Shown one piece after another: positions 6,583 through 62,334 of a DNA stretch of 64,000 nucleotides. The notes beneath the pieces are model-generated. The model had not been told where the DNA came from and searched no databases. It saw nothing but the letters and a program-made list of their open reading frames with translations. The stretch lies in the NCBI GenBank assembly GCA_023254095.1, contig JALNLM010000003.1:89133-153132 (forward strand), given 5' to 3'. The position numbers and the translations under genes were made by a program. Position 1 is the stretch's first letter, and each line of letters begins with the position of its first letter. The DNA comes from Candidatus Geocrenenecus huangii (GTDB lineage: Archaea; Thermoproteota; Nitrososphaeria_A; Caldarchaeales; Wolframiiraptoraceae).

Positions 6583-8205
6583 ATGAAATACTACAATAAA
6601 TTCTTCTCAGCGTTGATAGTATTGATATTGGGAGTATTAGTCTTGGAAAATGCTATAGCTGCTTTTCCCACTCCTTCACAATCTGATATATCAAGTTTAA
6701 CGGAGGGGTGGGTGAAAGTTGTCTCAGGAGGTTTTAACGATACAAATAATGTGGGTATAACCAATTTCGTCGATTTTAAAGGATACCGATACATAGGTGT
6801 AATTAACTCTGAAAAAGGTGGAGAAATATGGAGGACTCAGGATGGTGATAACTGGGAGAAGATAGGCCCTGACGGATTAGGAAACCCGAATAATCACGAA
6901 ATAACATTGTTCGTTTTTAGAGATAAGCTCTATGCTGGTACAAATAATAATGAAGACGGAGCAGAAATATGGTTTTCCCATGATGGAATAAACTTTAAAA
7001 AATTAGTTTCAGGCGGACTAGGTGATAAAGATAATGTCGGCGTGGGGTTACCGATAATATTCAATGATAAGTTACTAGTCCCTGTACAGAATGGAAATCT
7101 TAGATCTCTAAGAGATGGGGCTGAGATCTGGGCATCTGAAGATGGCGAGCATTTCCGAAGGAATGTGAAAGATGGGTTGGGGGATAGATCGAACTTCTTA
7201 ATATACTTCTTCCCTCAGGTCTTTAAAGACCACAAATTCATCGGGTTCGAGGCCACAACCTTTAATGAACACGTATTTCTAGGAACTTATAATCCGAATG
7301 GTGCGGAGATCTGGAGAAGCAAGGATGGTGTAAACTGGGAAAGAATTATTGATAACGGATTTAACGATACAGGCAACATTGCTATCGCTAATATGCGAAT
7401 ATTCAGAGACCAATTATATGTCGTTACTTTTAACCTGAAAGGGCTAAATGTATTTAGGACATATGATGGCAAGAACTGGGAGAAAGTAGTGGAGAATGGT
7501 TTTAGGGCTGGAGAATATAAAAACATGTTCGGGGTCTTGACGGAGATCAACGGGGCACTTTATCTAAGTACTTTTAGTACACCAACAGTTGGAGCTTTCC
7601 AGATATGGAGATCTAACGATGGCAAGAATTGGACGCAATTAGGCTTGACAGGATTCGGTAATAAGAATAACCATGGAGCTGGTATATCTTTACTATCGGA
7701 TGGCTGTCTTTACGTCTCGACAACAAATACAGTAGATGGGCTCGAAGTATGGAAGTCTAGAGATAGTTTAAACTGGGAGATAATATTTAAAGAAGAGATT
7801 ACTAGCAAGACTCACATAGGTGGAGGAATAGTTGAGTTCAACAATCATCTCTACATGTATATCTATGACTCTGAGAATGGTATAGAGATTTGGAAATATA
7901 CGTCTCCACTGCGACCTATCACTGTAATTCAGACTTCCACTCAGACAAGCATCTATACTATACCTACTACAAAGACTACAACTTCTAAGCTACCTACGAC
8001 TCAAATAACCACAGCGGAGAAATTAACGGCTGCTGAGTCCACATCGGTGATCTCCACTCAAACTGTGACTATATCTGAGACTGGTTGGGGAGCTCAAGAA
8101 TACGCAATTATTGGCATCATCGCCGTTGTTGCCATTGTTGCAGTCTTCTTTATCCTCAAGATCACAATCTGGTCTCGTCCATTGCCTCCTCCACCACCTC
8201 CATAA
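6583..8205 (+). CDS. Secreted/surface-anchored repeat protein (7 x ~50-aa DG.NW/GAEIW repeats, Thr-rich stalk, C-terminal TM anchor and poly-Pro tail)
   Basis: It has an N-terminal signal peptide, MKYYNKFFSALIVLILGVLVLENAIAA. Repeats of the form DGxNWEKI..G(L/F)G and GAEIW recur about 7 times. A T/S-rich segment (TTKTTTSKLPTTQITT...) follows, then the hydrophobic helix AIIGIIAVVAIVAVFFIL, and the protein ends in PPPPPP. Confidence 0.5.
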   Translation: MKYYNKFFSALIVLILGVLVLENAIAAFPTPSQSDISSLTEGWVKVVSGGFNDTNNVGITNFVDFKGYRYIGVINSEKGGEIWRTQDGDNWEKIGPDGLGNPNNHEITLFVFRDKLYAGTNNNEDGAEIWFSHDGINFKKLVSGGLGDKDNVGVGLPIIFNDKLLVPVQNGNLRSLRDGAEIWASEDGEHFRRNVKDGLGDRSNFLIYFFPQVFKDHKFIGFEATTFNEHVFLGTYNPNGAEIWRSKDGVNWERIIDNGFNDTGNIAIANMRIFRDQLYVVTFNLKGLNVFRTYDGKNWEKVVENGFRAGEYKNMFGVLTEINGALYLSTFSTPTVGAFQIWRSNDGKNWTQLGLTGFGNKNNHGAGISLLSDGCLYVSTTNTVDGLEVWKSRDSLNWEIIFKEEITSKTHIGGGIVEFNNHLYMYIYDSENGIEIWKYTSPLRPITVIQTSTQTSIYTIPTTKTTTSKLPTTQITTAEKLTAAESTSVISTQTVTISETGWGAQEYAIIGIIAVVAIVAVFFILKITIWSRPLPPPPPP

Positions 8206-17273: not shown

Positions 17274-18338
17274 TTGGTTCTGCCGAGAAATGTGATAGAC
17301 AATATTCTGAGGATTAAGAAGAAGTACCTCGAATATAGAAATGGGGAAGAAGGTGAGGGGTTTGAAAGAGAAAGGAGACAACACGTAGAAGAAGTTAATA
17401 GTATACTCAGGATAGATGAATTGGAAAATCTTGATGAAACAGGCCTTCTAAGATTAGCTAACAATCTCTACGCCTTCATATGGTGGACTAGAAAAGAATA
17501 CCTGGTTGATTATTGGATTAAAGGTGCTGGTGGATTAGACAAGTTGAGAAAAAATCTAGTAGAACTGCTCTATTCAGACCGTAGCTTAGCCGATAGATTT
17601 GATTCGTTCAGAAAGAACGTTAAAGGAATCGGAGTAGCGATGATTACAGAGATGTTAACATACTTCAATCCCAGAGAATACTGTATATGGAATAAGAGAG
17701 TTAGAGAAGCATTACTAAAGATTGGAGTAAACCAGCTTGGAGCAAACTTAGATATTAGTAGAGTAGGTATTAGCAGGCTTTCAGGTAGAGAATATGAAGC
17801 ACTGATAAAAACTCTCAAAGAGATAGCTTACCACTTAAGAGATGAGAAAGCTCTTCCGAATCCTGATCTACTCGATGTTCATTATTTCCTATACTATATC
17901 GCGGAGCTAAGCGATACTCTTGATGAAGAGGTAGACCATGAAGAAATCATTAACATGGTATTGAATATTGGGAAAGGACTTGGCTTCGATGTTTCAAGAG
18001 AGGTCCCATTAGCAACGGGTACAAGAGTAGATGTTATCTGGTCTACAAAGATAGGAAACCTAGGTGAGTTGAAATACGTATTCGAGGTTCATGTTAAAGG
18101 GAGTATTGATTCCTTACTAGTCAACTTGATGAAGGCCTCTCAAGATATAGCTGTCCAAAAAGTTATAGCTGTAGCCGTCGAAGAAGAATTAGAGAAGATC
18201 AGGAGAGAAGCCTCGGCAATAAAGATTCTCTCAGATAGATTGTTGTATTGGAATCTCAGAGAAGTTGTCAAAGCTAGTGAGTTGATAGATGAATTAATGA
18301 GTGTGATGCAGAGGCTAGGCTTAACCAAGACCTACTGA
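17274..18338 (+). CDS. Predicted two-domain nuclease: N-terminal helical (HhH-like) domain + C-terminal PD-(D/E)xK NucS/RecB/Mrr-like endonuclease fold
   Basis: The C-terminal segment GTRVDVIWSTKIGNLGELKYVFEVHVKGS has the D...E.K restriction-endonuclease-like signature. It resembles the NucS/DUF91 pattern IDLLA.D..G.LVVIEVK. The N-terminal KGIGVAMITEMLTYFNPREYCIWN segment looks like a helix-hairpin-helix-like DNA-binding module. Confidence 0.4.
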   Translation: MVLPRNVIDNILRIKKKYLEYRNGEEGEGFERERRQHVEEVNSILRIDELENLDETGLLRLANNLYAFIWWTRKEYLVDYWIKGAGGLDKLRKNLVELLYSDRSLADRFDSFRKNVKGIGVAMITEMLTYFNPREYCIWNKRVREALLKIGVNQLGANLDISRVGISRLSGREYEALIKTLKEIAYHLRDEKALPNPDLLDVHYFLYYIAELSDTLDEEVDHEEIINMVLNIGKGLGFDVSREVPLATGTRVDVIWSTKIGNLGELKYVFEVHVKGSIDSLLVNLMKASQDIAVQKVIAVAVEEELEKIRREASAIKILSDRLLYWNLREVVKASELIDELMSVMQRLGLTKTY

Positions 18339-21763: not shown

Positions 21764-22207
21764 ATGGAATGCTTTGAAAAGAATATGTCCACTCTAGTGC
21801 ATGAGGTCAAGAGGCTTGCTGTGCTTGATTCAGAAAGATGTGTTGGATGTCAGCTCTGCATGTTTGCATGTAGTAGAAGGTTCGGGGAAGGGGGGCTTGC
21901 TAAATCAGCTATCTTAGTTAGGAGTGTAGGAGGAATTGAGAAGGGATTAACAGTTATCGTTTGTAGAGCATGTGAAAATCCTCCATGTGCTAGAGTCTGC
22001 CCAACGGATGCTTTAGGACAGAGAAAACATGGAGGAGTAATCTTCGACTCAAGTAAATGTATAGGATGCGGTAATTGTGTAAGGGCATGCGATATAGGAG
22101 CAGTCTTCTGGGATGATGAAACAAATAAGCCGATAATATGTGTTCATTGTGGTTACTGTTCACGTTTCTGCCACTATAAAGTTATAGGGGTTGAGAAGAT
22201 AAAATGA
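21764..22207 (+). CDS. Polyferredoxin-like 4x[4Fe-4S] protein
   Basis: 147 aa with four CxxCxxCxxxCP-type clusters (CVGCQLCMFAC, CRACENPPCARVCP, CIGCGNCVRAC, CVHCGYCSRFC). It is translationally coupled (4-nt overlap) to the AOR gene. Confidence 0.7.
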   Translation: MECFEKNMSTLVHEVKRLAVLDSERCVGCQLCMFACSRRFGEGGLAKSAILVRSVGGIEKGLTVIVCRACENPPCARVCPTDALGQRKHGGVIFDSSKCIGCGNCVRACDIGAVFWDDETNKPIICVHCGYCSRFCHYKVIGVEKIK

Positions 22208-23970
22208 ATCCGAGAGAACCTCTGAAAAGAGTACTATACATCGATTTGTCGAAGAAGAGTTTCTGGATAGATGAAAGAGAAGACTTATTTGAAAGATGGC
22301 TTGGAGGAGTGGGCGTAGCGGTACAGCTCTTTAAAGAAGAGGCTTCGAAGAACGTCGATCCTCTATCTCCAGAAAACCCGGTGATCTTCTCTGTGGGACC
22401 ATTGACGTCACTCTACCCACTTGCCTCCAAGACAATCGCTATTTTCAAGAGTCCTCTTACAGGTAACCTAGGTGAAAGCCATGCAGGTGGAAGAAGTGCT
22501 ATCGCTCTAAGGCTTGCAGGCTATGGAGCAACGGTAATCAAGGGTGCCTCCCAGCTACCCGTATACCTAGTCATTAAAGAGGAAGAAGTAGAGTTTAGAG
22601 ATGCTTCAGCATTGTGGGGCGTATCTAACGCTATAACGGTTGGAAGAATATTGAGAGAAACAGCTCCAGGTCAAGGAGTAAGAACCATAATGAGGATAGG
22701 GAAGGCGGGTGAAAAACTTGTATCATATGCAGCTGTTATGACGGAAACGTATAGACACTTCGGTAGGCTGGGTTTAGGTGCAGTCTTAGGTTCAAAGAAA
22801 GTTAAGGGAATAATCATATACGGTAAGCATACGATACCTGTAGAAGACAAGAAAAAATATAGAGAAGTATATGATAGACTCTACAAGCTTTCAGTAGAAT
22901 CTGATGCTATGAAGCGATACCATGATATAGGTACCGCGATGAACATATTACCATTAAACTATATCGGAGCCCTTCCAACACGGAATCTTAATTCTAGCAG
23001 GTTTGAGGGGGCTGAAGAAATAAGTGGAGAGAACATAGCCGAGAAAAAGCTTGCTAGGAGGATCGCCTGTGCACATTGCCCAGTAGCATGCATCCATATT
23101 GCCAGTATTAGAGAACCATATCCTGATGAACCATACTTCTATAAGACAACCTTCATCTCATACGACCACGAACTAATCTATTCTCTAGGATCAATGCTGG
23201 GTGTAAAGAAGATAGACAATGTTCTTAGATTAATCGATATCGTTGAGGCCTTTGGGTTAGATGCAATAAGTGCAGGGGTATCTCTAGCATGGGCCACGGA
23301 AGCATATAAGAGAGGTATAGTAACTATCAATGAAACACTAGTTGAACTAGATTGGGGAAACGTAGAAAACTATATTGAGGCAATAAAATATATCGTCGAG
23401 CAGCCGAACCACTTCTACACCACGCTTGCTAAGGGGACGAGAGAAGCTTCAAAACATTATGGTGGACAAGAATTTGCATTAAACTTCGGTGGAAACGAGA
23501 TGCCTGGATACCATACTGGATACGGAGCTATCATTGGATACTCCATCGGCTCAAGGCACAGCCACCTAGATTGCGCAGGCTATAGAGTGGATCAAACCAT
23601 TAAGGAGCCGCCCTCTCCCGAAGAGTATGTTGAGATGCTAATAAAAGAAGAAGAGTGGAGACAGGTTTTAACAAGTCTTGTAATATGCTTATTCGCAAGA
23701 ACAATATACACTGTTGAGAATGTAGTCGATGCGCTTAAACCATTAGGCTACGACTGCACAGAAGATGAGTTAAAAAAGCTAGGAGAAGAAATATACCTTG
23801 AGAAGCAAAAGCTGAAGATAGAGCTGGGATTTAATCCTAGAGAACTTAAGATACCTAGTAGAGTCTTCGAGACATCTACACCGCATGGACTACTCAGGAG
23901 AGACTATGTAGAGAAAGCACTCCAACATTACGCTGAACTCATTGAATACAAAATAAATACATCAGACTAG
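22204..23970 (+). CDS. Aldehyde:ferredoxin oxidoreductase family (tungsten/molybdopterin AOR)
   Basis: 588 aa with AOR N-terminal and catalytic domains. The [4Fe-4S] Cys are in CAHCPVACIH..., and typical AOR blocks such as GLDAISAG are present. Confidence 0.8.
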   Translation: MNPREPLKRVLYIDLSKKSFWIDEREDLFERWLGGVGVAVQLFKEEASKNVDPLSPENPVIFSVGPLTSLYPLASKTIAIFKSPLTGNLGESHAGGRSAIALRLAGYGATVIKGASQLPVYLVIKEEEVEFRDASALWGVSNAITVGRILRETAPGQGVRTIMRIGKAGEKLVSYAAVMTETYRHFGRLGLGAVLGSKKVKGIIIYGKHTIPVEDKKKYREVYDRLYKLSVESDAMKRYHDIGTAMNILPLNYIGALPTRNLNSSRFEGAEEISGENIAEKKLARRIACAHCPVACIHIASIREPYPDEPYFYKTTFISYDHELIYSLGSMLGVKKIDNVLRLIDIVEAFGLDAISAGVSLAWATEAYKRGIVTINETLVELDWGNVENYIEAIKYIVEQPNHFYTTLAKGTREASKHYGGQEFALNFGGNEMPGYHTGYGAIIGYSIGSRHSHLDCAGYRVDQTIKEPPSPEEYVEMLIKEEEWRQVLTSLVICLFARTIYTVENVVDALKPLGYDCTEDELKKLGEEIYLEKQKLKIELGFNPRELKIPSRVFETSTPHGLLRRDYVEKALQHYAELIEYKINTSD

Positions 23971-24111
23971 AAAACCAAGCTCCAAGAATCACCAAATTAG
24001 AAGAAACATAAGAAGATAATAATCGGAGAAGCTACTAACATACTCTCTTCTTATACTCTTGATTAGTTTTTAGATGAGATCGGAGAAAAGAGATATAGGT
24101 TTAAGGGTATG

Positions 24112-24206
24112 TGCCGGGGGAGGGATTCGAACCCTCGACTTCGGGGTTGCATCCTCGTTGACAGGATTATGAGCCCCGCACTCTAACCAGGCTGAGTTAC
24201 CCCGGC
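24112..24206 (-). tRNA. tRNA-Met/Ile2 (anticodon CAT) with a ~20-nt intron next to anticodon-loop position 37/38
   Basis: The minus-strand read is GCCGGGG-TA-ACTC...GAGT-G-CGGGG-CTCATA[ATCCTGTCAACGAGGATGCA]A-CCCCG-AAGTC-GAGGGTTCGAATCCCTC-CCCCGGC-A. This gives a cloverleaf with a 7-bp acceptor stem, a GTTCGAATC T-loop and a G1:C72 pair. The CCA end is not encoded. Confidence 0.7.
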
Positions 24207-39334: not shown

Positions 39335-39546
39335 TAGATTATCTTTTGAATAATCAATAGATAAACGTTATATCTCTAGAACCATAGAAATAATACCCAG
39401 AAGAATATAGAAAGAAATATGGTAAAAAATACTTAATAAAATCAACTGAAACTATTTTTCACCAAACGATACAGGCACAGTCTTCATCTGTAGGAGGGTC
39501 ATCATCAAGATCTACCATGTTCAGATATTAAATAAATGCAAATGAG

Positions 39547-39634
39547 CGGGCCCGGAGGGACTTGAACCCTCGACCTCCGGCTTTCTCCTAATGTTCCGAA
39601 GGCCGGCGCCATATCCATTCTAGGCTACGGGCCC
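39547..39634 (-). tRNA. tRNA-Arg (anticodon TCG) with a 13-nt intron at 37/38
   Basis: The minus-strand read is GGGCCCG-TA-GCC..GGC-G-CCGGC-CTTCGG[AACATTAGGAGAA]A-GCCGG-AGGTC-GAGGGTTCAAGTCCCTC-CGGGCCC-G. It has a TTCAAGT T-loop and a 7-bp acceptor stem. Confidence 0.6.
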
Positions 39635-47268: not shown

Positions 47269-48645
47269 TTACTTCAACATTAATTCCTCGTATCTCCTAA
47301 GCTCTTGTACGCTCCTCTTTATATCGCTGAATAGTTTTTTAGCCTCATAGACGTCTTCAACCCCTATTTCTTCCCTATTGTTCGCTTTCGCTATCTCCAT
47401 GCTCGGTCTAATAAGCTGTACAGCGTATCTAAGCGTTGACTCAACACCTATGTCTGTCAAGGCTTCTAATGCTTCATTCGATATCTTTACTTTTTCTTCA
47501 GCCGCTCTTATCTCTAGGATTTTCTTAATTTCATCTCTTGCATAGGGCCTGGTACTTATTATCAGTAATCTATCTAGGAGATCTAGGGGGATCCCGTGAG
47601 GAGATTCTATATCTGTTCCTCTGACTCTTGTTACTCCACGGTTGCTTGCAAATATTAGTATCGGTGCAAGCTCGCTCTCCATAGCTGCGTTTAAGAAAGA
47701 GAACGCTTCTACATCAAGTAAATGCACTTCATCTATGAACAGTACTCCTGGGATTATTTCCGCTGTCCCTTCTTCAAGCCTCTTCTTAACCATCTCGTCA
47801 ACTTCTTTCCTTATCTCAGAGTCTATCTCTTTAGTCGATGGCCCACCGAAGAGTAGACTGAATAAACTTCCTCCCCGATGCTGTGCAGATATCTGGTCTA
47901 GGTCGTGGAGCGTGAGAACATAGACGAATTCTTTATTCTTCTCTACTGGTCCACTAGGTCTAGGTACAGGCTTCTCATCCCATGAAGTTATCTCATATTT
48001 CTCGGTTGCTTCTTCTGATCTACCAAGCTTTGTCACTTTCCCCGTCTCCGCATCTATCATTATTATGTCGCCTATTGTTACTCCCTGTTGGATCATGTGA
48101 AGAGCGATGCTCTGACCCGCTCTGAACACCCTCTTATCATCCTTAGTTGCTAGACCGATAACCACGTGATCGGGAATTTCCTGGTATGGGTTGTAAGGAT
48201 GCTTTCTGGACTTTATATCTAGCTGAGTTACTTCACCCTCGTATACGTGCCTCTGCTCTCTCAATCTAACGCCTATCGCTTTCCTCATAGCTTGAGTGAG
48301 AACCTCAGTCTTCTTTAATTCCGACGAATAGATCTCGGAGCCGCTCAACGCAACGAATGGAACATCTTTACCAAGTTCCTTAGCAATACCATATGCGATA
48401 GCAGTCTTACCTGTACCGGGTGGACCAGCGAACAATACTGCTCTACCAGCCATCTTGCCCTCCTTGATCATCTTAACAACGATTCCAGCTGCTTCTCGAG
48501 CTTCGGTCTGTCCAACCAATCCATCAGCTATAGGTTTCGCTCTCAAACCATCAAGTCCGAGACCTTTAATGTGGGAATGTGCACCTATCCTCGTTATTCT
48601 TCTACCTGAATATTCTGTAATATCTGTCAACGCCATCCTACCCAC
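47269..48645 (-). CDS. TIP49 (RuvB-like 1/2, Pontin/Reptin) AAA+ ATPase
   Basis: It shows very strong similarity to eukaryotic RuvBL1. The matching blocks are HSHIKGLGLD, GRAVLFAGPPGTGKTA, the domain II OB-fold insert, GVLFIDEVHLLD and HGIPLDLLDRLLII. Confidence 0.85.
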   Translation of the reverse strand: MGRMALTDITEYSGRRITRIGAHSHIKGLGLDGLRAKPIADGLVGQTEAREAAGIVVKMIKEGKMAGRAVLFAGPPGTGKTAIAYGIAKELGKDVPFVALSGSEIYSSELKKTEVLTQAMRKAIGVRLREQRHVYEGEVTQLDIKSRKHPYNPYQEIPDHVVIGLATKDDKRVFRAGQSIALHMIQQGVTIGDIIMIDAETGKVTKLGRSEEATEKYEITSWDEKPVPRPSGPVEKNKEFVYVLTLHDLDQISAQHRGGSLFSLLFGGPSTKEIDSEIRKEVDEMVKKRLEEGTAEIIPGVLFIDEVHLLDVEAFSFLNAAMESELAPILIFASNRGVTRVRGTDIESPHGIPLDLLDRLLIISTRPYARDEIKKILEIRAAEEKVKISNEALEALTDIGVESTLRYAVQLIRPSMEIAKANNREEIGVEDVYEAKKLFSDIKRSVQELRRYEELMLK

Positions 48646-58954: not shown

Positions 58955-59998
58955 TTAGCATATTCTAGGAACTATCTCGCCTACTGGTGGTTCAAGTATT
59001 CTATAGCCTCCGATACTTGTCCTCACTACAACTAAACTGATCTCTTCTTTCTTCTCTCTAACTTCTCCGATTATCTCAGCATTCCTATAGCCTATTCTAT
59101 GCATCGTTTCAAGCATATCTTCTGCATACTCTTCTTCTACTCCTAGAACCGCTACTCCTTCAGAAGCTAAGGTTAACGGGTCTAATCCAAGCATTTGGCA
59201 GTAACTCATTACAGGTTCTCTTACCGGTATCTTTTCCTCATCTATGATTATGGTTGTGTTCGACAATGAAGCCCAATTATTCAAAGTCATTGCCAGACCT
59301 CCTCTAGTAGGGTCGCTGGCAGCATGAATATGCTTGCCATACTTTTTTATGAGGGGTATCATTAAATCCGTTAGAGGTTTAACGTCACTTCTTAATTCAT
59401 GTTCTTCAAGCATGAGACCTTTCTGGGCAGCGTATATTGCCGCTCCATGTTCAGCTACTGGCCCTGAGACGATGATTTTGTCTCCAGGCCTTAGATTCTT
59501 ATCTACTATCAAGTATTCCGATATACCGATTCCGACCGTTGTGATTATTATCTTGTCTATCTCTCCATAAGGCATAACCTTAAAGTCTCCGCCGATCAGC
59601 TTTACTCTCAGGTTAGCAAATACGTCAAACATAGATTCTAATATCTTTTCCAATGTTTCTCTCTCTAAACCCTCTTCAACTACTATGGAATCTAATGCAG
59701 CTACCGGGTTTCCACCAAGCATCAGTACATCATTTATCGTTCCAGAAGCAGCAAGTTTCCCAATATCTCCACCGGGGAAAAATATTGGGTTAACAGTGTA
59801 GGAGTCGATAGTTAAGACCATGTATTTGTCTTCGCTTAAAGGGATGGCCGCTGCATCATCTGGGAAATCTAATCCTAGACCACCTTCAACGAGCTTCATC
59901 CAGGAGGGTAGTCTACTGAAGACTATCTCTTCAAGCAGCTGATTCATTTCTCTTCCGCCAGACCCATGGGCTAGAGTAATCTTCTCCACATCGACCAC
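58955..59998 (-). CDS. hypE: Hydrogenase maturation factor HypE
   Basis: It has an AIR-synthase-related fold with the N-terminal LAHGSGG and a C-terminal PRIC Cys. Confidence 0.85.
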   Translation of the reverse strand: MVDVEKITLAHGSGGREMNQLLEEIVFSRLPSWMKLVEGGLGLDFPDDAAAIPLSEDKYMVLTIDSYTVNPIFFPGGDIGKLAASGTINDVLMLGGNPVAALDSIVVEEGLERETLEKILESMFDVFANLRVKLIGGDFKVMPYGEIDKIIITTVGIGISEYLIVDKNLRPGDKIIVSGPVAEHGAAIYAAQKGLMLEEHELRSDVKPLTDLMIPLIKKYGKHIHAASDPTRGGLAMTLNNWASLSNTTIIIDEEKIPVREPVMSYCQMLGLDPLTLASEGVAVLGVEEEYAEDMLETMHRIGYRNAEIIGEVREKKEEISLVVVRTSIGGYRILEPPVGEIVPRIC

Positions 59999-60292
59999 CT
60001 AGTATTTCTTGCTTAACCACTTATTTACCACCTTATCTATTTCTTCAAGCTCTTCAGTTGACATCTCTCCCTCTTCAACGAGTCTTTCAACAGCTTCTCG
60101 AATATACCTGAAGCTCTCTAGGAATTCTTCTTCACTCAGTTTAGAGATTATAAAGCCTGCGTGGACAACTACATAATCTCCTGGCGAGAGGTCATCTATA
60201 GCTGACAATACCTCTTTAACTACTCCACCAAAATCTACTCTAACAAACTCTTCTGACACTTCTAGCACTTTACCGTAGACGCCCCAGCACAT
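59999..60292 (-). CDS. hypC: Hydrogenase assembly chaperone HypC/HupF
   Basis: It begins MCWGVYGKVLEV, the essential N-terminal Cys2 of HypC, and has an OB fold with a C-terminal helical extension. It abuts the hypE start. Confidence 0.7.
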   Translation of the reverse strand: MCWGVYGKVLEVSEEFVRVDFGGVVKEVLSAIDDLSPGDYVVVHAGFIISKLSEEEFLESFRYIREAVERLVEEGEMSTEELEEIDKVVNKWLSKKY

Positions 60293-60455
60293 TCTACAAT
60301 AAGTATTGTAGGATAGAATTTAAAAACATAAAGCTACAACCTACACTATCGTACCTTTTATTAATTGAGCATCATTCTCCAGCGATGATGATACGCTATT
60401 TTGGCTATTTCTAAATCTCGGATTAAATGTGAAATAGATAAACTACCACAGAGGT

Positions 60456-60938
60456 CTATCTCGTTAAGGCTTGTTCAGGTCTTGCGAACAGCTCGAGATA
60501 CTGCTTAACTCTCGCTTCGAATATATCGGGTCTAAACTTCATCTCCATCGCTGCGATAGTGTTCAAAGGATCTTCGGGGTTGGGATTGTTTAACAGGTTT
60601 CTAAGAGTCTCTATCAACGTTATCACGTGGAGAGAGGGGGACCAATCTTCTTTCAGTATTGATTCGCATACTCTAGCTGGAACTTCATCTGTAAAGTTAG
60701 GATGCCATATACGTGTCCACCATACGACGTCTGGTGGAGTATATGGGAAAGTGCGAGGGATAAGTATCTCTACTTTAAAGTATCCACCTTCATATAGTCC
60801 TTCACCGATAATCACTCCTCTATAATGTGTTAAATCACCATCAACAACATCGAAAAGGGGTTCATGCTCGTGTACCAGCTTATACTCGAGGGCCAACCTC
60901 TTATACCAGAGGAGCTCTGGAAGCTCAGCATCCATCAT
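60456..60938 (-). CDS. Ubiquitin-conjugating enzyme E2-like protein (UBC fold)
   Basis: The alignment to UbcH5 is clear by eye. It has YEGGYFKVEILIPRTFPYTPPDVVWWTRIWHPNF (HPN motif at ~79-81), the catalytic Cys in RVCESILKEDWSPSL (Cys ~91, with WSP at position +9), and C-terminal NNPNPEDPLN matching CDPNPDDPL. Confidence 0.85.
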   Translation of the reverse strand: MMDAELPELLWYKRLALEYKLVHEHEPLFDVVDGDLTHYRGVIIGEGLYEGGYFKVEILIPRTFPYTPPDVVWWTRIWHPNFTDEVPARVCESILKEDWSPSLHVITLIETLRNLLNNPNPEDPLNTIAAMEMKFRPDIFEARVKQYLELFARPEQALTR

Positions 60939-61130
60939 TAGGTCCCTCCATCTAAAATCTAGATCTTAACAATCCTGGATTAATACTTATACCCTATTCG
61001 GTAACCATCTTTCCATGTTTTACCAATATGTGTTTTCTATGAGTACTCTCGAATTTCATACGTCACTTTAATACATCAGTGAATCGTTCTTACGAGGTTA
61101 TTCTAGATAGACGTTCTGTCCTTCAATATC

Positions 61131-61379
61131 TTACTCTACATATACTCCTCCTACAGTCCTCGTTATCAATACGAGCTTGTCTCCGTCTTCCACACCTATA
61201 TCCTGAAGTGTCTCAGTATCTTTTAGTGCCCTACCTCTGAATGTAAGTCTCGTAGTATCAGGGGGGAGCTTCTTCATAGCGCATACTTTTGCTCTTATAG
61301 CTCCAATAGTTGTTGTAGGTGAAACTTCTAATTCTATCGGGCTTCCACCACCCACTGCAGGAACGACCTTAATCTTCAT
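61131..61379 (-). CDS. Ubiquitin homolog (beta-grasp) ending in a Gly-Gly motif followed by a 4-residue extension (precursor form)
   Basis: The 82-aa sequence IELEVSPTTTIGAIRAKVCAMKKLPPDTTRLTFRGRALKDTETLQDIGVEDGDKLVLITRTVGG-VYVE aligns along its whole length with ubiquitin ([63 protein letters not shown]). Confidence 0.8.
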   Translation of the reverse strand: MKIKVVPAVGGGSPIELEVSPTTTIGAIRAKVCAMKKLPPDTTRLTFRGRALKDTETLQDIGVEDGDKLVLITRTVGGVYVE

Positions 61380-61414
61380 TAAACCTTCTCTCCTAGAATT
61401 TTCTGTTTATCCAC

Positions 61415-61424
61415 TATATATAAA
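61415..61424 (-). promoter_or_regulatory. Putative TATA box (TTTATATATA) for the ubiquitin-E2 transcription unit
   Basis: An A/T octamer lies about 36-45 nt upstream of the ubiquitin-like start codon on the minus strand, in a 320-bp divergent intergenic region. Confidence 0.3.
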
Positions 61425-61662
61425 CATTTGTATCTCGAGTATTCTACGAGAATTCCTAGAAAATGCTTATAGAAATACTCGGCGAACCTACAATCAAGAT
61501 ATATTAGACAAGATTGCTCGGGTTTCTAACCTTGAATCTTCTTACTACTCATCAACACTTAACTTACAGGGATGTATCCTTGTAGAAGAGTTGTGCATAG
61601 GAGATTGTATTTGCTAAAAATACATATTCCTTCTCTGTTAAAGAAGCTAATTAGATAACAAT

Positions 61663-61670
61663 TATATTTT
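61663..61670 (+). promoter_or_regulatory. Putative TATA box (TTATATTT) for the JAMM gene
   Basis: It lies about 30-36 nt upstream of the TTG start at 61699, which is consistent with a short-leader or leaderless archaeal transcript. Confidence 0.3.
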
Positions 61671-61698
61671 AGAGCATTTCCTAGAGTGTAGAGAAGAG

Positions 61699-62334
61699 TT
61701 GAGAGTGAGGATCTATCCTCTAGCATTAGGCAAGGCTGTAAAGTATACTTTAATGGATCTCGAAAGAGAAGTGGCAGGACTATTAATTGGACGATATGAA
61801 AAGAAACAAGATGTGTTAGAGATATGGGATGCTATATCAGGAAACCAGAAAGCTTCTTCAGCATTTGTATATCTAGATGAAGAAGTTATGGCCGCTACTT
61901 TCGAGTGGCTTTCGAGAGAGAGACCTGGACTATATATTGTAGGATGGTATCATTCACATCCAGGCTTCGACCTCTTCTTATCGACAATAGATATACAAAC
62001 GCAGAAGAGATATCAGATGATGTTCCCCAAAGCAGTCGCCATGGTCATCGATCCACTCGAATACGCTAAGACTAGAAAACTTGTAGATCTAAAGTTTAAG
62101 GTATTCCACATAGATAAGCAGGGAAGGGTAATACCCTTGAGGGCCTCGATAGGTATACAGAGAAAGAAGGTAATAGAAAGTACTATAAGGGGAATGGATA
62201 CAGTAGAACTATTCTTTATTCAACCTCCTGAACTGCAGGAACCCGAAAACTACAAGTTTACAGGTTTCTCAGGTTTAGGGGAAAGAATTAAGAAGCTAAA
62301 AGATAAATTCATGCCTTTCTATCAAGAGAAGTAA
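61699..62334 (+). CDS. JAMM/MPN+ metalloprotease (Rpn11/CSN5-like deubiquitinase/ubiquitin-precursor processing enzyme)
   Basis: It has a complete JAMM motif: upstream Glu (LEREVAG) and H85-S-H87-x7-S95-x2-D98 within GWYHSHPGFDLFLSTID. It is transcribed divergently from the ubiquitin/E2 genes. Confidence 0.85.
   Translation: MRVRIYPLALGKAVKYTLMDLEREVAGLLIGRYEKKQDVLEIWDAISGNQKASSAFVYLDEEVMAATFEWLSRERPGLYIVGWYHSHPGFDLFLSTIDIQTQKRYQMMFPKAVAMVIDPLEYAKTRKLVDLKFKVFHIDKQGRVIPLRASIGIQRKKVIESTIRGMDTVELFFIQPPELQEPENYKFTGFSGLGERIKKLKDKFMPFYQEK

What the first reader, a model, noticed from the sequence alone, without database searches (positions are those of the whole stretch)
61131..61379. Ubiquitin encoded as a precursor with a 4-residue C-terminal tail (..TVGG-VYVE)
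The Gly-Gly motif at positions 77-78 is followed by VYVE. The protein must therefore be C-terminally processed before any E1 can activate it. The only candidate processing enzyme in the neighbourhood is the divergently encoded JAMM protease. This mirrors the Rpn11-dependent pro-ubiquitin processing shown for Caldiarchaeum. Seven Lys residues are present, giving potential chain-linkage sites.
Basis: seen in the sequence. Interest (0 to 1): 0.6.

Follow-up and report, generated by a model that had tools for sequence, protein, structure and literature searches.

The report
Archaeal ubiquitin precursor, short variable tail
This is a genuine archaeal ubiquitin gene encoding four extra residues after the Gly-Gly end; it closely matches the Caldiarchaeum system, where the neighbouring Rpn11-like protease was shown to trim such tails, so it is a new example of a known mechanism.

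Summary
Window 61131-61379(-) encodes an 82-aa ubiquitin with Gly77-Gly78 followed by VYVE and seven lysines. The exact protein recurs on about 30 contigs from independent MAGs, so the tail is not a sequencing error.

It is 81% identical to Caldiarchaeum subterraneum ubiquitin. The divergent JAMM (61699-62334) is 60% identical to CsRpn11 and has an intact catalytic motif.

Three qualifications:
1. Across 43 orthologs LITRTVGG is fixed, while there are 29 different tails of 0-23 residues, and some orthologs end at GG. The tail looks unconstrained rather than functional.
2. Bulky residues after the cut (C79E, G80W) blocked CsRpn11, and this tail has Tyr at position 80.
3. No E1 or RING lies in the window. 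In this lineage (near Ca. Geocrenenecus) the ancestral Ub-E2-E1-RING operon is split: E2 now abuts hypC-hypE, and hypD abuts E1-RING about 134 genes away in the same genome.

Verdict: a new member of a known kind, of modest interest.

The parts
61146..61379 (-). Mature ubiquitin coding part (codons 1-78, ending Gly77-Gly78)
   Evidence: Pfam ubiquitin E=2.7e-15. It is 81% identical to CsUb structures 6FJ7/2MQJ/6FNN. The AF2 model is a beta-grasp with mean pLDDT 84.5. LITRTVGG is near-invariant in 43 orthologs.
61134..61145 (-). Four-codon C-terminal tail, Val79-Tyr80-Val81-Glu82 (GTA TAT GTA GAG), the putative pro-peptide
   Evidence: Read directly from the sequence. AF2 pLDDT is below 50 for residues 77-82. 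There are 29 different tails of 0-23 aa among orthologs. The tail differs even among near-identical cores: VYVE, SDRAC, SDRVC, SDCAC, FDRAC, NI.
61131..61133 (-). TAA stop codon of the ubiquitin ORF
61699..62334 (+). Rpn11-like JAMM/MPN+ metalloprotease, divergently transcribed; the candidate maturase and deubiquitylase
   Evidence: Pfam JAB 1.1e-17. PDB 6FJU (CsRpn11) E=2.9e-62, 59.9% identity over 172 aa; motif E24, H85, H87, S95, D98. The N-terminus MRVRIYPLAL matches CsRpn11, which supports the TTG start at 61699.
60456..60938 (-). E2 ubiquitin-conjugating enzyme (UBC fold), downstream of Ub
   Evidence: Pfam UQ_con 2.5e-28. HPN at 79-81 and catalytic Cys91. Best PDB matches are eukaryotic E2s such as UBE2K at 1e-23. 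It is 77-87% identical to the E2 of sister operons.
61380..61698 (.). 319-bp divergent intergenic region between Ub and JAMM; presumed bidirectional promoter region with A/T-rich TATA-like boxes about 40 nt upstream of each start
   Evidence: Read from the sequence; the promoter assignment is inference. No Rfam family matches here.
60939..61130 (.). 192-bp Ub-E2 spacer
   Evidence: In sister lineages L098, L100 and L103 the Ub stop overlaps the E2 start by 20 nt instead.
60293..60455 (.). E2|hypC junction: the synteny breakpoint where the ancestral operon continued into E1-RING
   Evidence: In about 20 sister loci E1 (ThiF) and RING follow E2. Here hypC follows. All five same-species MAG loci share this junction.
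58955..60292 (-). hypC (59999-60292) and hypE (58955-59998), hydrogenase maturation genes now fused to the Ub-E2 transcription direction; context of the rearrangement, not part of the Ub system
   Evidence: Pfam HupF_HypC 5.7e-19 and AIRS/AIRS_C. The ancestral order hypD-hypC-hypE-hdr-mvh is seen in L106. hypD now precedes E1 in L107-L110 and L104.

Best explanation
The ORF is the ubiquitin of a Caldiarchaeum-type (Aigarchaeota/Caldarchaeales, family Wolframiiraptoraceae, near Ca. Geocrenenecus) eukaryote-like ubiquitylation system. It is translated as an 82-residue precursor. The four residues after Gly78 (VYVE) are a disordered, evolutionarily unconstrained run-on. The divergently encoded Rpn11-like JAMM metalloprotease binds the Ub C-terminal strand and hydrolyses the Gly78-Val79 bond, exposing the Gly-Gly carboxylate. 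Mature Ub is then adenylated and thioesterified by a ThiF-type E1 and passed to the adjacent E2 (Cys91). With a small RING and a membrane RING E3, it is conjugated to lysines. The same JAMM reverses conjugation. In this lineage the E1 and RING genes are not next to E2. The ancestral Ub-E2-E1-RING operon has been split, so that E2 is followed by hypC-hypE and hypD is followed by E1-RING about 134 genes (roughly 115 kb) away in the same genome. Shown here: gene identities, motif integrity, invariance of GG, variability of tails, the split, and co-occurrence of E1 in the same genomes. Inferred: that this JAMM cleaves this tail, and that the tail has no function of its own.
For: Identity: Pfam domains for Ub, E2 and JAB. 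PDB sequence hits to CsUb (2MQJ, 6FJ7, 5ZEW, 6FNN/6FNO; E about 1e-39, residues 1-78) and CsRpn11 (6FJU, 2.9e-62). The AF2 beta-grasp has a disordered segment at 77-82, and Foldseek's top hit is 6FJ7 with TM 0.86. Catalytic residues are present. Mechanism in the ortholog: the precursor is refractory to E1 while Rpn11-cleaved or GG-truncated Ub is active (PMC5654768); cleavage is precisely after Gly-Gly, and the SAMP-type JAMM does not cut CsUb-pre (PMC6043591). K4, K53 and K68, the three lysines found ubiquitylated on CsUb, are conserved here. Tail unconstrained: 29 distinct tails of 0-23 aa over 43 orthologs, with LITRTVGG fixed. Four tail variants occur among Ca. G. arthurdayi strains with zero core changes. 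Tail-less orthologs still have a conserved JAMM (L001, L011, L016, L017). Not an artefact: the exact sequence is on about 30 contigs and in 5 NCBI MAGs. E1 present: NCBI accessions place HypE/HypC/E2/Ub/JAMM at MEM1584168-172, and TM-RING/RING/E1/HypD/Vps4 at MEM1584301/304/305/306/307. All report the same 158,995-bp longest contig, which is the length of L007's contig. A 465,213-bp contig also carries both sets. The complementary junction hypD-E1-RING-...-aaRS-PhoU-EndA is seen on 22 contigs of matching GC (40.5% against 40.7%).
Against: There is no experiment on this protein pair. Fuchs et al. found that bulky residues just after the cut abolished CsRpn11 processing (C79E, G80W), and the window has Val79 and the aromatic Tyr80. 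Tyr at P2' is unique to this lineage in my sample, although one natural ortholog has Trp there (P0009). The JAMM is only 60% identical to CsRpn11, so its S' side tolerance may differ in either direction.
Confidence: 0.75

Rival explanations
1. The tail is a functional pro-peptide, a lineage-tuned kinetic gate. P1'/P2' residues (Val-Tyr here) set how fast the JAMM releases activatable ubiquitin, making the protease the on-switch of the pathway. This could matter more now that Ub-E2 and E1-RING are transcriptionally uncoupled.
For: P1' to P3' substitutions change the CsRpn11 rate from faster (C79G, E81W) to none (C79E, G80W). The exact VYVE tail is stable across about 30 contigs of the species. 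Ub and JAMM share a divergent promoter region.
Against: The tails share no sequence, length or composition: 29 variants of 0-23 aa, including several lineages that end at GG. Four tail variants occur within one species with an invariant core. In sister lineages the tail is merely the out-of-frame read of the E2 start. This is the pattern of neutral drift.
Confidence: 0.12
2. The precursor is poorly processed or not processed, because Tyr80 sterically blocks the JAMM. Ubiquitin in this lineage would then be largely non-conjugatable, and the system would be decaying after the operon split.
For: G80W abolished processing of CsUb-pre. The operon is disrupted.
Against: All components remain intact ORFs with catalytic motifs across many MAGs: Ub, E2, JAMM, E1 (395 aa), RING86 and TM-RING. 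The Ub core is under strong conservation, with 0-2 changes in 78 residues between species. GG is retained. A natural ortholog carries Trp at P2'. Tyr is smaller than Trp, and the enzyme is a different ortholog.
Confidence: 0.07
3. A different enzyme trims the tail, such as the SAMP-type JAMM or an unspecific carboxypeptidase, and the adjacent JAMM acts only as a deubiquitylase.
For: A 4-residue tail could in principle be nibbled by exopeptidases. Archaea of this group also carry a SAMP/JAMM system (PMC6043591). An Urm1/SAMP-like gene lies about 9 kb beyond the JAMM in L006.
Against: CsJAMM did not cleave CsUb-pre, whereas CsRpn11 did so precisely. No other JAMM homolog is in the window (tblastn). 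A carboxypeptidase has no obvious way to stop at Gly78.
Confidence: 0.05
4. The extension is a sequencing, assembly or gene-calling artefact, and the true stop follows GG.
For: None was found. Some orthologs do stop at GG.
Against: The identical 82-aa product is on about 30 contigs from independent samples and assemblers (NCBI, JGI, ENA, Logan). The codons GTA TAT GTA GAG TAA are read unambiguously.
Confidence: 0.01

Closest known systems
Candidatus Caldiarchaeum subterraneum ubiquitin precursor (CsUb-pre, Csub_C1474) and its Rpn11 homolog (CsRpn11, Csub_C1473); Hennell James et al. 2017, Fuchs et al. 2018
   Same: The 78-residue core is 81% identical and ends in TRTVGG at the same position. 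It is encoded as a precursor, next to a divergently transcribed Rpn11-like JAMM (60% identical, same motif) and followed by E2. K4, K53 and K68 are conserved. The fold is the same (TM 0.86-0.89).
   Different: The tail is 4 residues (VYVE) rather than 9 (CGEPIRRAA), with no similarity and with Tyr at P2'. CsUb K48 is Arg48 here. E1 and RING are not in the operon but about 134 genes away beside hypD. A 192-bp spacer separates Ub and E2.
Eukaryotic ubiquitin precursors (polyubiquitin with a C-terminal extra residue, Ub-ribosomal protein fusions) processed by DUBs
   Same: Ubiquitin is synthesised with residues after Gly-Gly that must be removed before E1 activation. The fold is beta-grasp, with 38-40% identity to human Ub.
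   Different: It is a single-copy monomer gene, not a poly-Ub or ribosomal fusion. [quoted passage not shown]
Archaeal SAMP/UbaA/JAMM1 (HvJAMM1, PfJAMM1) sampylation systems
   Same: A beta-grasp modifier with C-terminal GG, sometimes with a tail, is matured by a JAMM protease and activated by a ThiF-type E1.
   Different: SAMP systems have no E2 and no RING E3, and their modifiers are ThiS/MoaD-like. Here the best Pfam family is ubiquitin proper, the JAMM is nearest to Rpn11 (6FJU, then yeast and human Rpn11 at 1e-17 to 1e-18), and a UBC-fold E2 is adjacent. CsJAMM and CsRpn11 do not cross-react.
Asgard archaeal ubiquitin operons (Heimdall-, Hel-, Hermod-, Jordarchaeia)
   Same: They have the same Ub/E2/E1/RING gene set. 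The Ub ends in TRTEGG/TRTTGG, sometimes with short tails (SPKN, FPN, ST, F) (loci L033-L045).
   Different: They are more distant (Ub 38-53%, E1 30-38% identity), with a different gene order (RING upstream of Ub) and no adjacent JAMM detected in those loci at the tblastn threshold used.

Membership tests
Ubiquitin family (Pfam PF00240), Caldiarchaeum-type archaeal ubiquitin | Sequence membership above the curated threshold | tested here: met
   PF00240 E=2.7e-15, 56.3 bits against a cutoff of 25.4. It is 81% identical to CsUb.
Ubiquitin family (Pfam PF00240), Caldiarchaeum-type archaeal ubiquitin | Beta-grasp fold | tested here: met
   The AF2 model has mean pLDDT 84.5 with a beta-beta-alpha-beta-beta-(3-10)-beta order. 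Foldseek's top hits are 6FJ7/6FNO/6FNN CsUb at TM 0.86-0.89, then human Ub at TM 0.82-0.86.
Ubiquitin family (Pfam PF00240), Caldiarchaeum-type archaeal ubiquitin | C-terminal di-glycine at the end of the flexible tail, conserved among orthologs | tested here: met
   G77-G78 are present. LITRTVGG is found in 42 of 43 orthologs; the exception, P0014, looks like a chimeric or truncated call.
Ubiquitin family (Pfam PF00240), Caldiarchaeum-type archaeal ubiquitin | Covalent conjugation to lysines via E1/E2/E3 | not testable with these tools
   Shown only for C. subterraneum proteins in vitro (PMC5654768). Here only the genes are shown to exist.
Pro-ubiquitin processed by an Rpn11-like JAMM (CsUb-pre/CsRpn11 type) | Residues encoded after Gly-Gly | tested here: met
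   VYVE at 79-82, reproducible on about 30 contigs.
Pro-ubiquitin processed by an Rpn11-like JAMM (CsUb-pre/CsRpn11 type) | Cognate Rpn11-like MPN+ protease with an intact E...HxH...S..D motif, encoded next to Ub | tested here: met
   61699-62334(+), 319 bp from Ub. Motif E24/H85/H87/S95/D98. 59.9% identity to 6FJU.
Pro-ubiquitin processed by an Rpn11-like JAMM (CsUb-pre/CsRpn11 type) | Steric compatibility of P1'/P2' residues with the protease | tested here: inconclusive
   C79E and G80W blocked CsRpn11. The window has V79/Y80. Natural tails include F/L/R/D at P1' and W at P2', so the in vitro rule may not transfer.
   Demonstrated for the ortholog only.
Complete Caldiarchaeum-type Ub operon (Ub-E2-E1-srfp/RING with divergent Rpn11) | E1 (ThiF with C-terminal ubiquitin-fold domain) and small RING immediately downstream of E2 | tested here: not met
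   There is no ThiF or RING in the 64-kb window by regex or tblastn, and hypC-hypE follow E2. About 20 sister loci do have the contiguous operon.
Complete Caldiarchaeum-type Ub operon (Ub-E2-E1-srfp/RING with divergent Rpn11) | All components present in the genome | tested here: met
   E1 P0295 (MEM1584305), RING86 (MEM1584304) and TM-RING (MEM1584301) fall in the same accession block and on the same 158,995-bp contig as Ub (MEM1584171). The hypD-E1-RING locus is L107-L110.

The most novel reading that the evidence does not exclude
The tail is not neutral. It is a lineage-specific kinetic gate: Val79/Tyr80 slow or condition JAMM cleavage, so that the protease, sharing a divergent promoter with Ub, becomes the rate-limiting on-switch for ubiquitylation in a genus where Ub-E2 and E1-RING have been transcriptionally uncoupled by a genome rearrangement. 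On this reading, tail sequence and the JAMM S' pocket co-evolve.
Probability: 0.1. Interest if true: 0.5.

Novelty: new member of a known kind. Interest (0 to 1): 0.25.

Why it matters
Archaeal ubiquitin systems of the Caldiarchaeum and Asgard type are the best available models for how eukaryotic ubiquitylation arose. This locus adds no new mechanism, but it gives a natural experiment. Closely related genomes carry tails of 0 to 23 unrelated residues after an invariant GG. This indicates that a free Rpn11-like protease makes the sequence after GG selectively invisible, the same permissiveness that later allowed eukaryotes to encode ubiquitin as fusions and polymers. The Tyr80 tail is a ready-made test of the steric rules derived from CsRpn11 mutants. 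The split of the operon in the Geocrenenecus lineage shows that the cascade does not require co-transcription of Ub-E2 with E1-RING.

Tried and rejected
1. E1 and RING in the window. I looked with motif regexes and with tblastn using sister-lineage proteins, and found nothing.
2. E1 loss. I suspected that E1 had been lost from this lineage, because the E1 clusters nearest to it showed very few contigs. I rejected this when one search showed that the 'contigs' column describes only the cluster representative, and one search showed the E1 on 21 contigs in the same accession blocks as the window's Ub.
It missed even L001's own E1, so it could not show presence or absence. It did yield L024, the first detached hypD-E1 locus.
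4. Look-ups of six E1 candidates (P0045, P0053, P0057, P0086, P0073, and P0078 via P0002) all returned intact operons of other lineages.
5. A single-inversion model for the split. The two new junctions are co-oriented, with E1 on the JAMM side of Ub (accession order). One inversion cannot produce that, so at least two events or an excision and reintegration are needed.
6. Aligning the E2|hypC and hypD|E1 spacers with the ancestral hypD|hypC spacer of L106, to locate the breakpoints, gave no significant similarity.
7. An Rfam scan found no structured RNA in the long intergenic regions.
8. No other Ub-, proteasome- or JAMM-related gene was found among the 20 largest other ORFs of the window.

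Full report
**Observation.** The minus-strand ORF at 61131-61379 encodes an 82-residue protein. It ends ...LITRTVGG-VYVE, with Gly77-Gly78 at 61146-61151, the tail at 61134-61145 and a TAA stop at 61131-61133. It has lysines at positions 2, 4, 31, 36, 37, 53 and 68. Pfam assigns it to the ubiquitin family (E=2.7e-15). The gene downstream on the same strand (60456-60938) is a UBC-fold E2 (2.5e-28). The divergently transcribed gene (61699-62334) is a JAB/MPN protein (1.1e-17). The description is accurate in every detail.

**Not an artefact.** An exact-sequence look-up finds this 82-aa protein, tail included, on at least 24 contigs read (about 30 in the cluster table). These include five separate NCBI MAG assemblies, all with the same neighbourhood.

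**What it is.**
- The protein is 63/78 (81%) identical to Candidatus Caldiarchaeum subterraneum ubiquitin. It matches the solved CsUb structures (2MQJ, 6FJ7, 5ZEW, 6FNN/6FNO) over residues 1-78.
- An AlphaFold2 model from the ortholog alignment is a beta-grasp (mean pLDDT 84.5) in which only residues 77-82 fall below pLDDT 50. Foldseek returns 6FJ7 first (TM 0.86, 81% identity), followed by eukaryotic ubiquitin (TM 0.82-0.86, 38-40% identity).
- The JAMM matches CsRpn11 (6FJU) at E=2.9e-62, with 59.9% identity over 172 residues. It shares the N-terminus MRVRIYPLAL, which supports the TTG start at 61699, and has the full E24...H85-x-H87...S95..D98 motif. The next-best hits are yeast and human Rpn11.
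- The E2 has HPN(79-81) and Cys91.
- Source names in the protein clusters and related loci place the organism in the Caldarchaeales family Wolframiiraptoraceae, closest to Ca. Geocrenenecus arthurdayi (Ub core 76/78 identical).

**How it most likely works.** The mechanism was established for the C. subterraneum proteins.
- The full-length pro-ubiquitin (nine-residue pro-peptide CGEPIRRAA) is refractory to E1. Rpn11-cleaved or GG-truncated ubiquitin is activated and conjugated (PMC5654768).
- CsRpn11 cuts exactly after Gly-Gly, and the co-resident SAMP-type JAMM does not cut CsUb-pre (PMC6043591).
- By homology, the window's JAMM should hydrolyse the Gly78-Val79 bond and release activatable ubiquitin.
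- The three lysines found ubiquitylated on CsUb (K4, K53, K68) are all conserved here, while CsUb K48 is Arg48.

Among 43 orthologs, LITRTVGG is essentially invariant. The sequence after it takes 29 different forms of 0-23 residues, and P1' can be S, F, G, V, D, R, N, L, C or A. Within the tight cluster around the window the tails are VYVE, SDRAC, SDRVC, SDCAC, FDRAC, NI and SSYAGGTP. The core differs from the window's by only 0-2 of 78 residues for the first five of these and by 6-7 for NI and SSYAGGTP. The four Ca. G. arthurdayi variants have identical cores. Several lineages (L001, which is Ca. Wolframiiraptor allenii, and L011, L016, L017) stop directly at GG yet keep the divergent JAMM. 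In L098, L100 and L103 the tail is simply the out-of-frame read of the first E2 codons, because the Ub stop overlaps the E2 start by 20 nt. I conclude that the tail is an unconstrained run-on. It is tolerated because the JAMM, whose conserved role must be deubiquitylation, removes whatever follows GG.

**A caveat from the literature.** Fuchs et al. found that residues distal to the cut matter sterically. C79G and E81W accelerated processing, whereas C79E and G80W abolished it. The window has Val at P1' and Tyr at P2'. Tyr at P2' is unique to this lineage in my sample, though one natural ortholog (P0009) has Trp there. This leaves a real but minor possibility that processing is slow or needs a co-adapted enzyme.

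**Surroundings: the operon is split.** In about 20 loci from at least eight sister lineages the layout is JAMM <-|-> Ub-E2-E1(ThiF)-RING-(two coiled-coil proteins)-TM-RING-aaRS-PhoU-EndA. On the JAMM side the flank is L21e-Rpo4-DUF655-KsgA, which the window shares. In the window and all same-species MAGs, E2 is instead followed by hypC-hypE-hdr-mvh. Neither E1, RING nor any of the ancestral downstream block is present anywhere in the 64 kb.

The complementary junction exists. On 22 contigs with the window's GC content (40.5% against 40.7%; sister lineages are 51-55%), and in KUA_Bin06-type contigs, hypD is followed by E1-RING-...-TM-RING-aaRS-PhoU-EndA. A related low-GC genome (L106) keeps the un-rearranged hypA-hypB-hypD-hypC-hypE-hdr-mvh cluster.

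NCBI accessions tie the two halves to one genome. HypE, HypC, E2, Ub and JAMM are MEM1584168-172. TM-RING, RING, E1, HypD and Vps4 are MEM1584301, 304, 305, 306 and 307. All report a longest contig of 158,995 bp, the length of the contig that carries the Ub in L007, and a 465,213-bp contig also carries both sets. The same non-adjacency holds in Ca. G. arthurdayi (Ub MCL7383837 and E2 ...836, against RING MCL7383679).

The system is therefore complete but dispersed, with E1 about 134 genes away on the JAMM side. Because the two new junctions are co-oriented, a single inversion cannot explain them, so the rearrangement path is unresolved. This linkage rests on accession order and contig length, not on reading the contig. 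I mark it as strong inference.

**Comparison and novelty.** This is a new member of the known Caldiarchaeum-type archaeal ubiquitin system. It has a different and shorter tail, and a derived, split gene arrangement. It is not a SAMP system, because it has an E2 and RINGs, a ubiquitin-proper sequence and an Rpn11-like JAMM. The two family-level papers I checked on Wolframiiraptoraceae and Caldarchaeales do not discuss the ubiquitin system.

**Verdict.** Interest is modest (0.25). The small open questions are whether Tyr80 affects maturation, and how the cascade is coordinated now that E1-RING sits beside hypD rather than E2.

Noticed in passing
window 60293-60455 (E2|hypC junction); L107 9234-9476 and L104 9820-10000 (hypD|E1 junction); L106 2869-2970 (ancestral hypD|hypC): The ancestral Ub-E2-E1-RING operon and the hypD-hypC-hypE cluster have exchanged partners in this lineage: E2 is now followed by hypC-hypE, and hypD by E1-RING. 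The two junctions are co-oriented and about 134 genes apart, so more than one inversion, or an excision and reintegration, is needed. Ca. Geocrenenecus arthurdayi shares the split, judging from accession numbers.
   Followed up: yes
L027 9078-9359 (Ca. Terraquivivens tengchongensis Ub); also L004 10001-10291, P0013, P0015, P0021: The 15-residue tails of the Terraquivivens group (GG|DASGDLLRITRTSVE and variants) resemble a degenerate repeat of ubiquitin's own C-terminus (GDKLVIITRTVGG). The ITRT motif is kept through synonymous codon changes. This suggests an old 3'-end duplication whose peptide may still be under some constraint.
   Followed up: partly
L098 5148-5167; L100 5482-5501; L103 772-791: In several sister lineages the ubiquitin stop codon overlaps the E2 start by 20 nt. 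Their 8-residue tails (SGRAGGTP, GGGACGAP, SSHAGRAP) are the out-of-frame translation of the first E2 codons, which explains the recurrent ...G(A/T)P endings. The window has a 192-bp spacer instead.
   Followed up: partly
L107 9417-9443 and L104 9894-9920: A 27-nt element, TCATCTTAATTAGATAGTTTAC(T/G)ACTA, is conserved upstream of the relocated E1 in two species whose spacers are otherwise unalignable. It is possibly the promoter that now drives E1-RING independently of Ub-E2.
   Followed up: no
L107 6756-7868 (-), L104 7340-8452 (-): A Vps4/CdvC-like MIT-AAA ATPase, and beyond it a membrane-bound (Mbh/complex-I-like) hydrogenase cluster, lie immediately upstream of hypD-E1-RING in the rearranged lineage.
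   Followed up: no
window 47269-48645 (-): A TIP49 (RuvBL/Pontin-Reptin-like) AAA+ ATPase (Pfam TIP49 E=6e-145), another protein with a eukaryote-like affinity, lies 12 kb from the Ub genes.
   Followed up: no
window 22204-23970 (+): An aldehyde:ferredoxin oxidoreductase (AFOR_N/AFOR_C, E about 1e-66). This is consistent with the tungsten-enzyme-rich Wolframiiraptoraceae assignment.
   Followed up: no
window 6583-8205 (+) and 17274-18338 (+): Two sizeable ORFs (540 aa and 354 aa) have no Pfam match at E<=1e-5.
   Followed up: no
window 24111-24206 (-) and 39546-39634 (-): Two tRNA genes are longer than usual (96 and 89 nt). ARAGORN reports an irregular anticodon for the second, probably because of introns. 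Both pass the Rfam tRNA threshold.
   Followed up: no
protein clusters: The 90%-identity cluster holding the window's ubiquitin also holds its E2, presumably seeded by a fused or overlapping Ub-E2 gene call. JGI names several of these ubiquitins 'small subunit ribosomal protein S27Ae'. The 'contigs' column of the homology search describes only the cluster representative, which misled me for a while about E1 abundance.
   Followed up: partly
L006 584-850 (+), about 9 kb beyond the JAMM, outside the window: A small Urm1/SAMP-like protein (88 aa, weak Pfam Urm1) lies next to CGI-121. It is likely part of the separate SAMP-type modifier system of the same genome.
   Followed up: no
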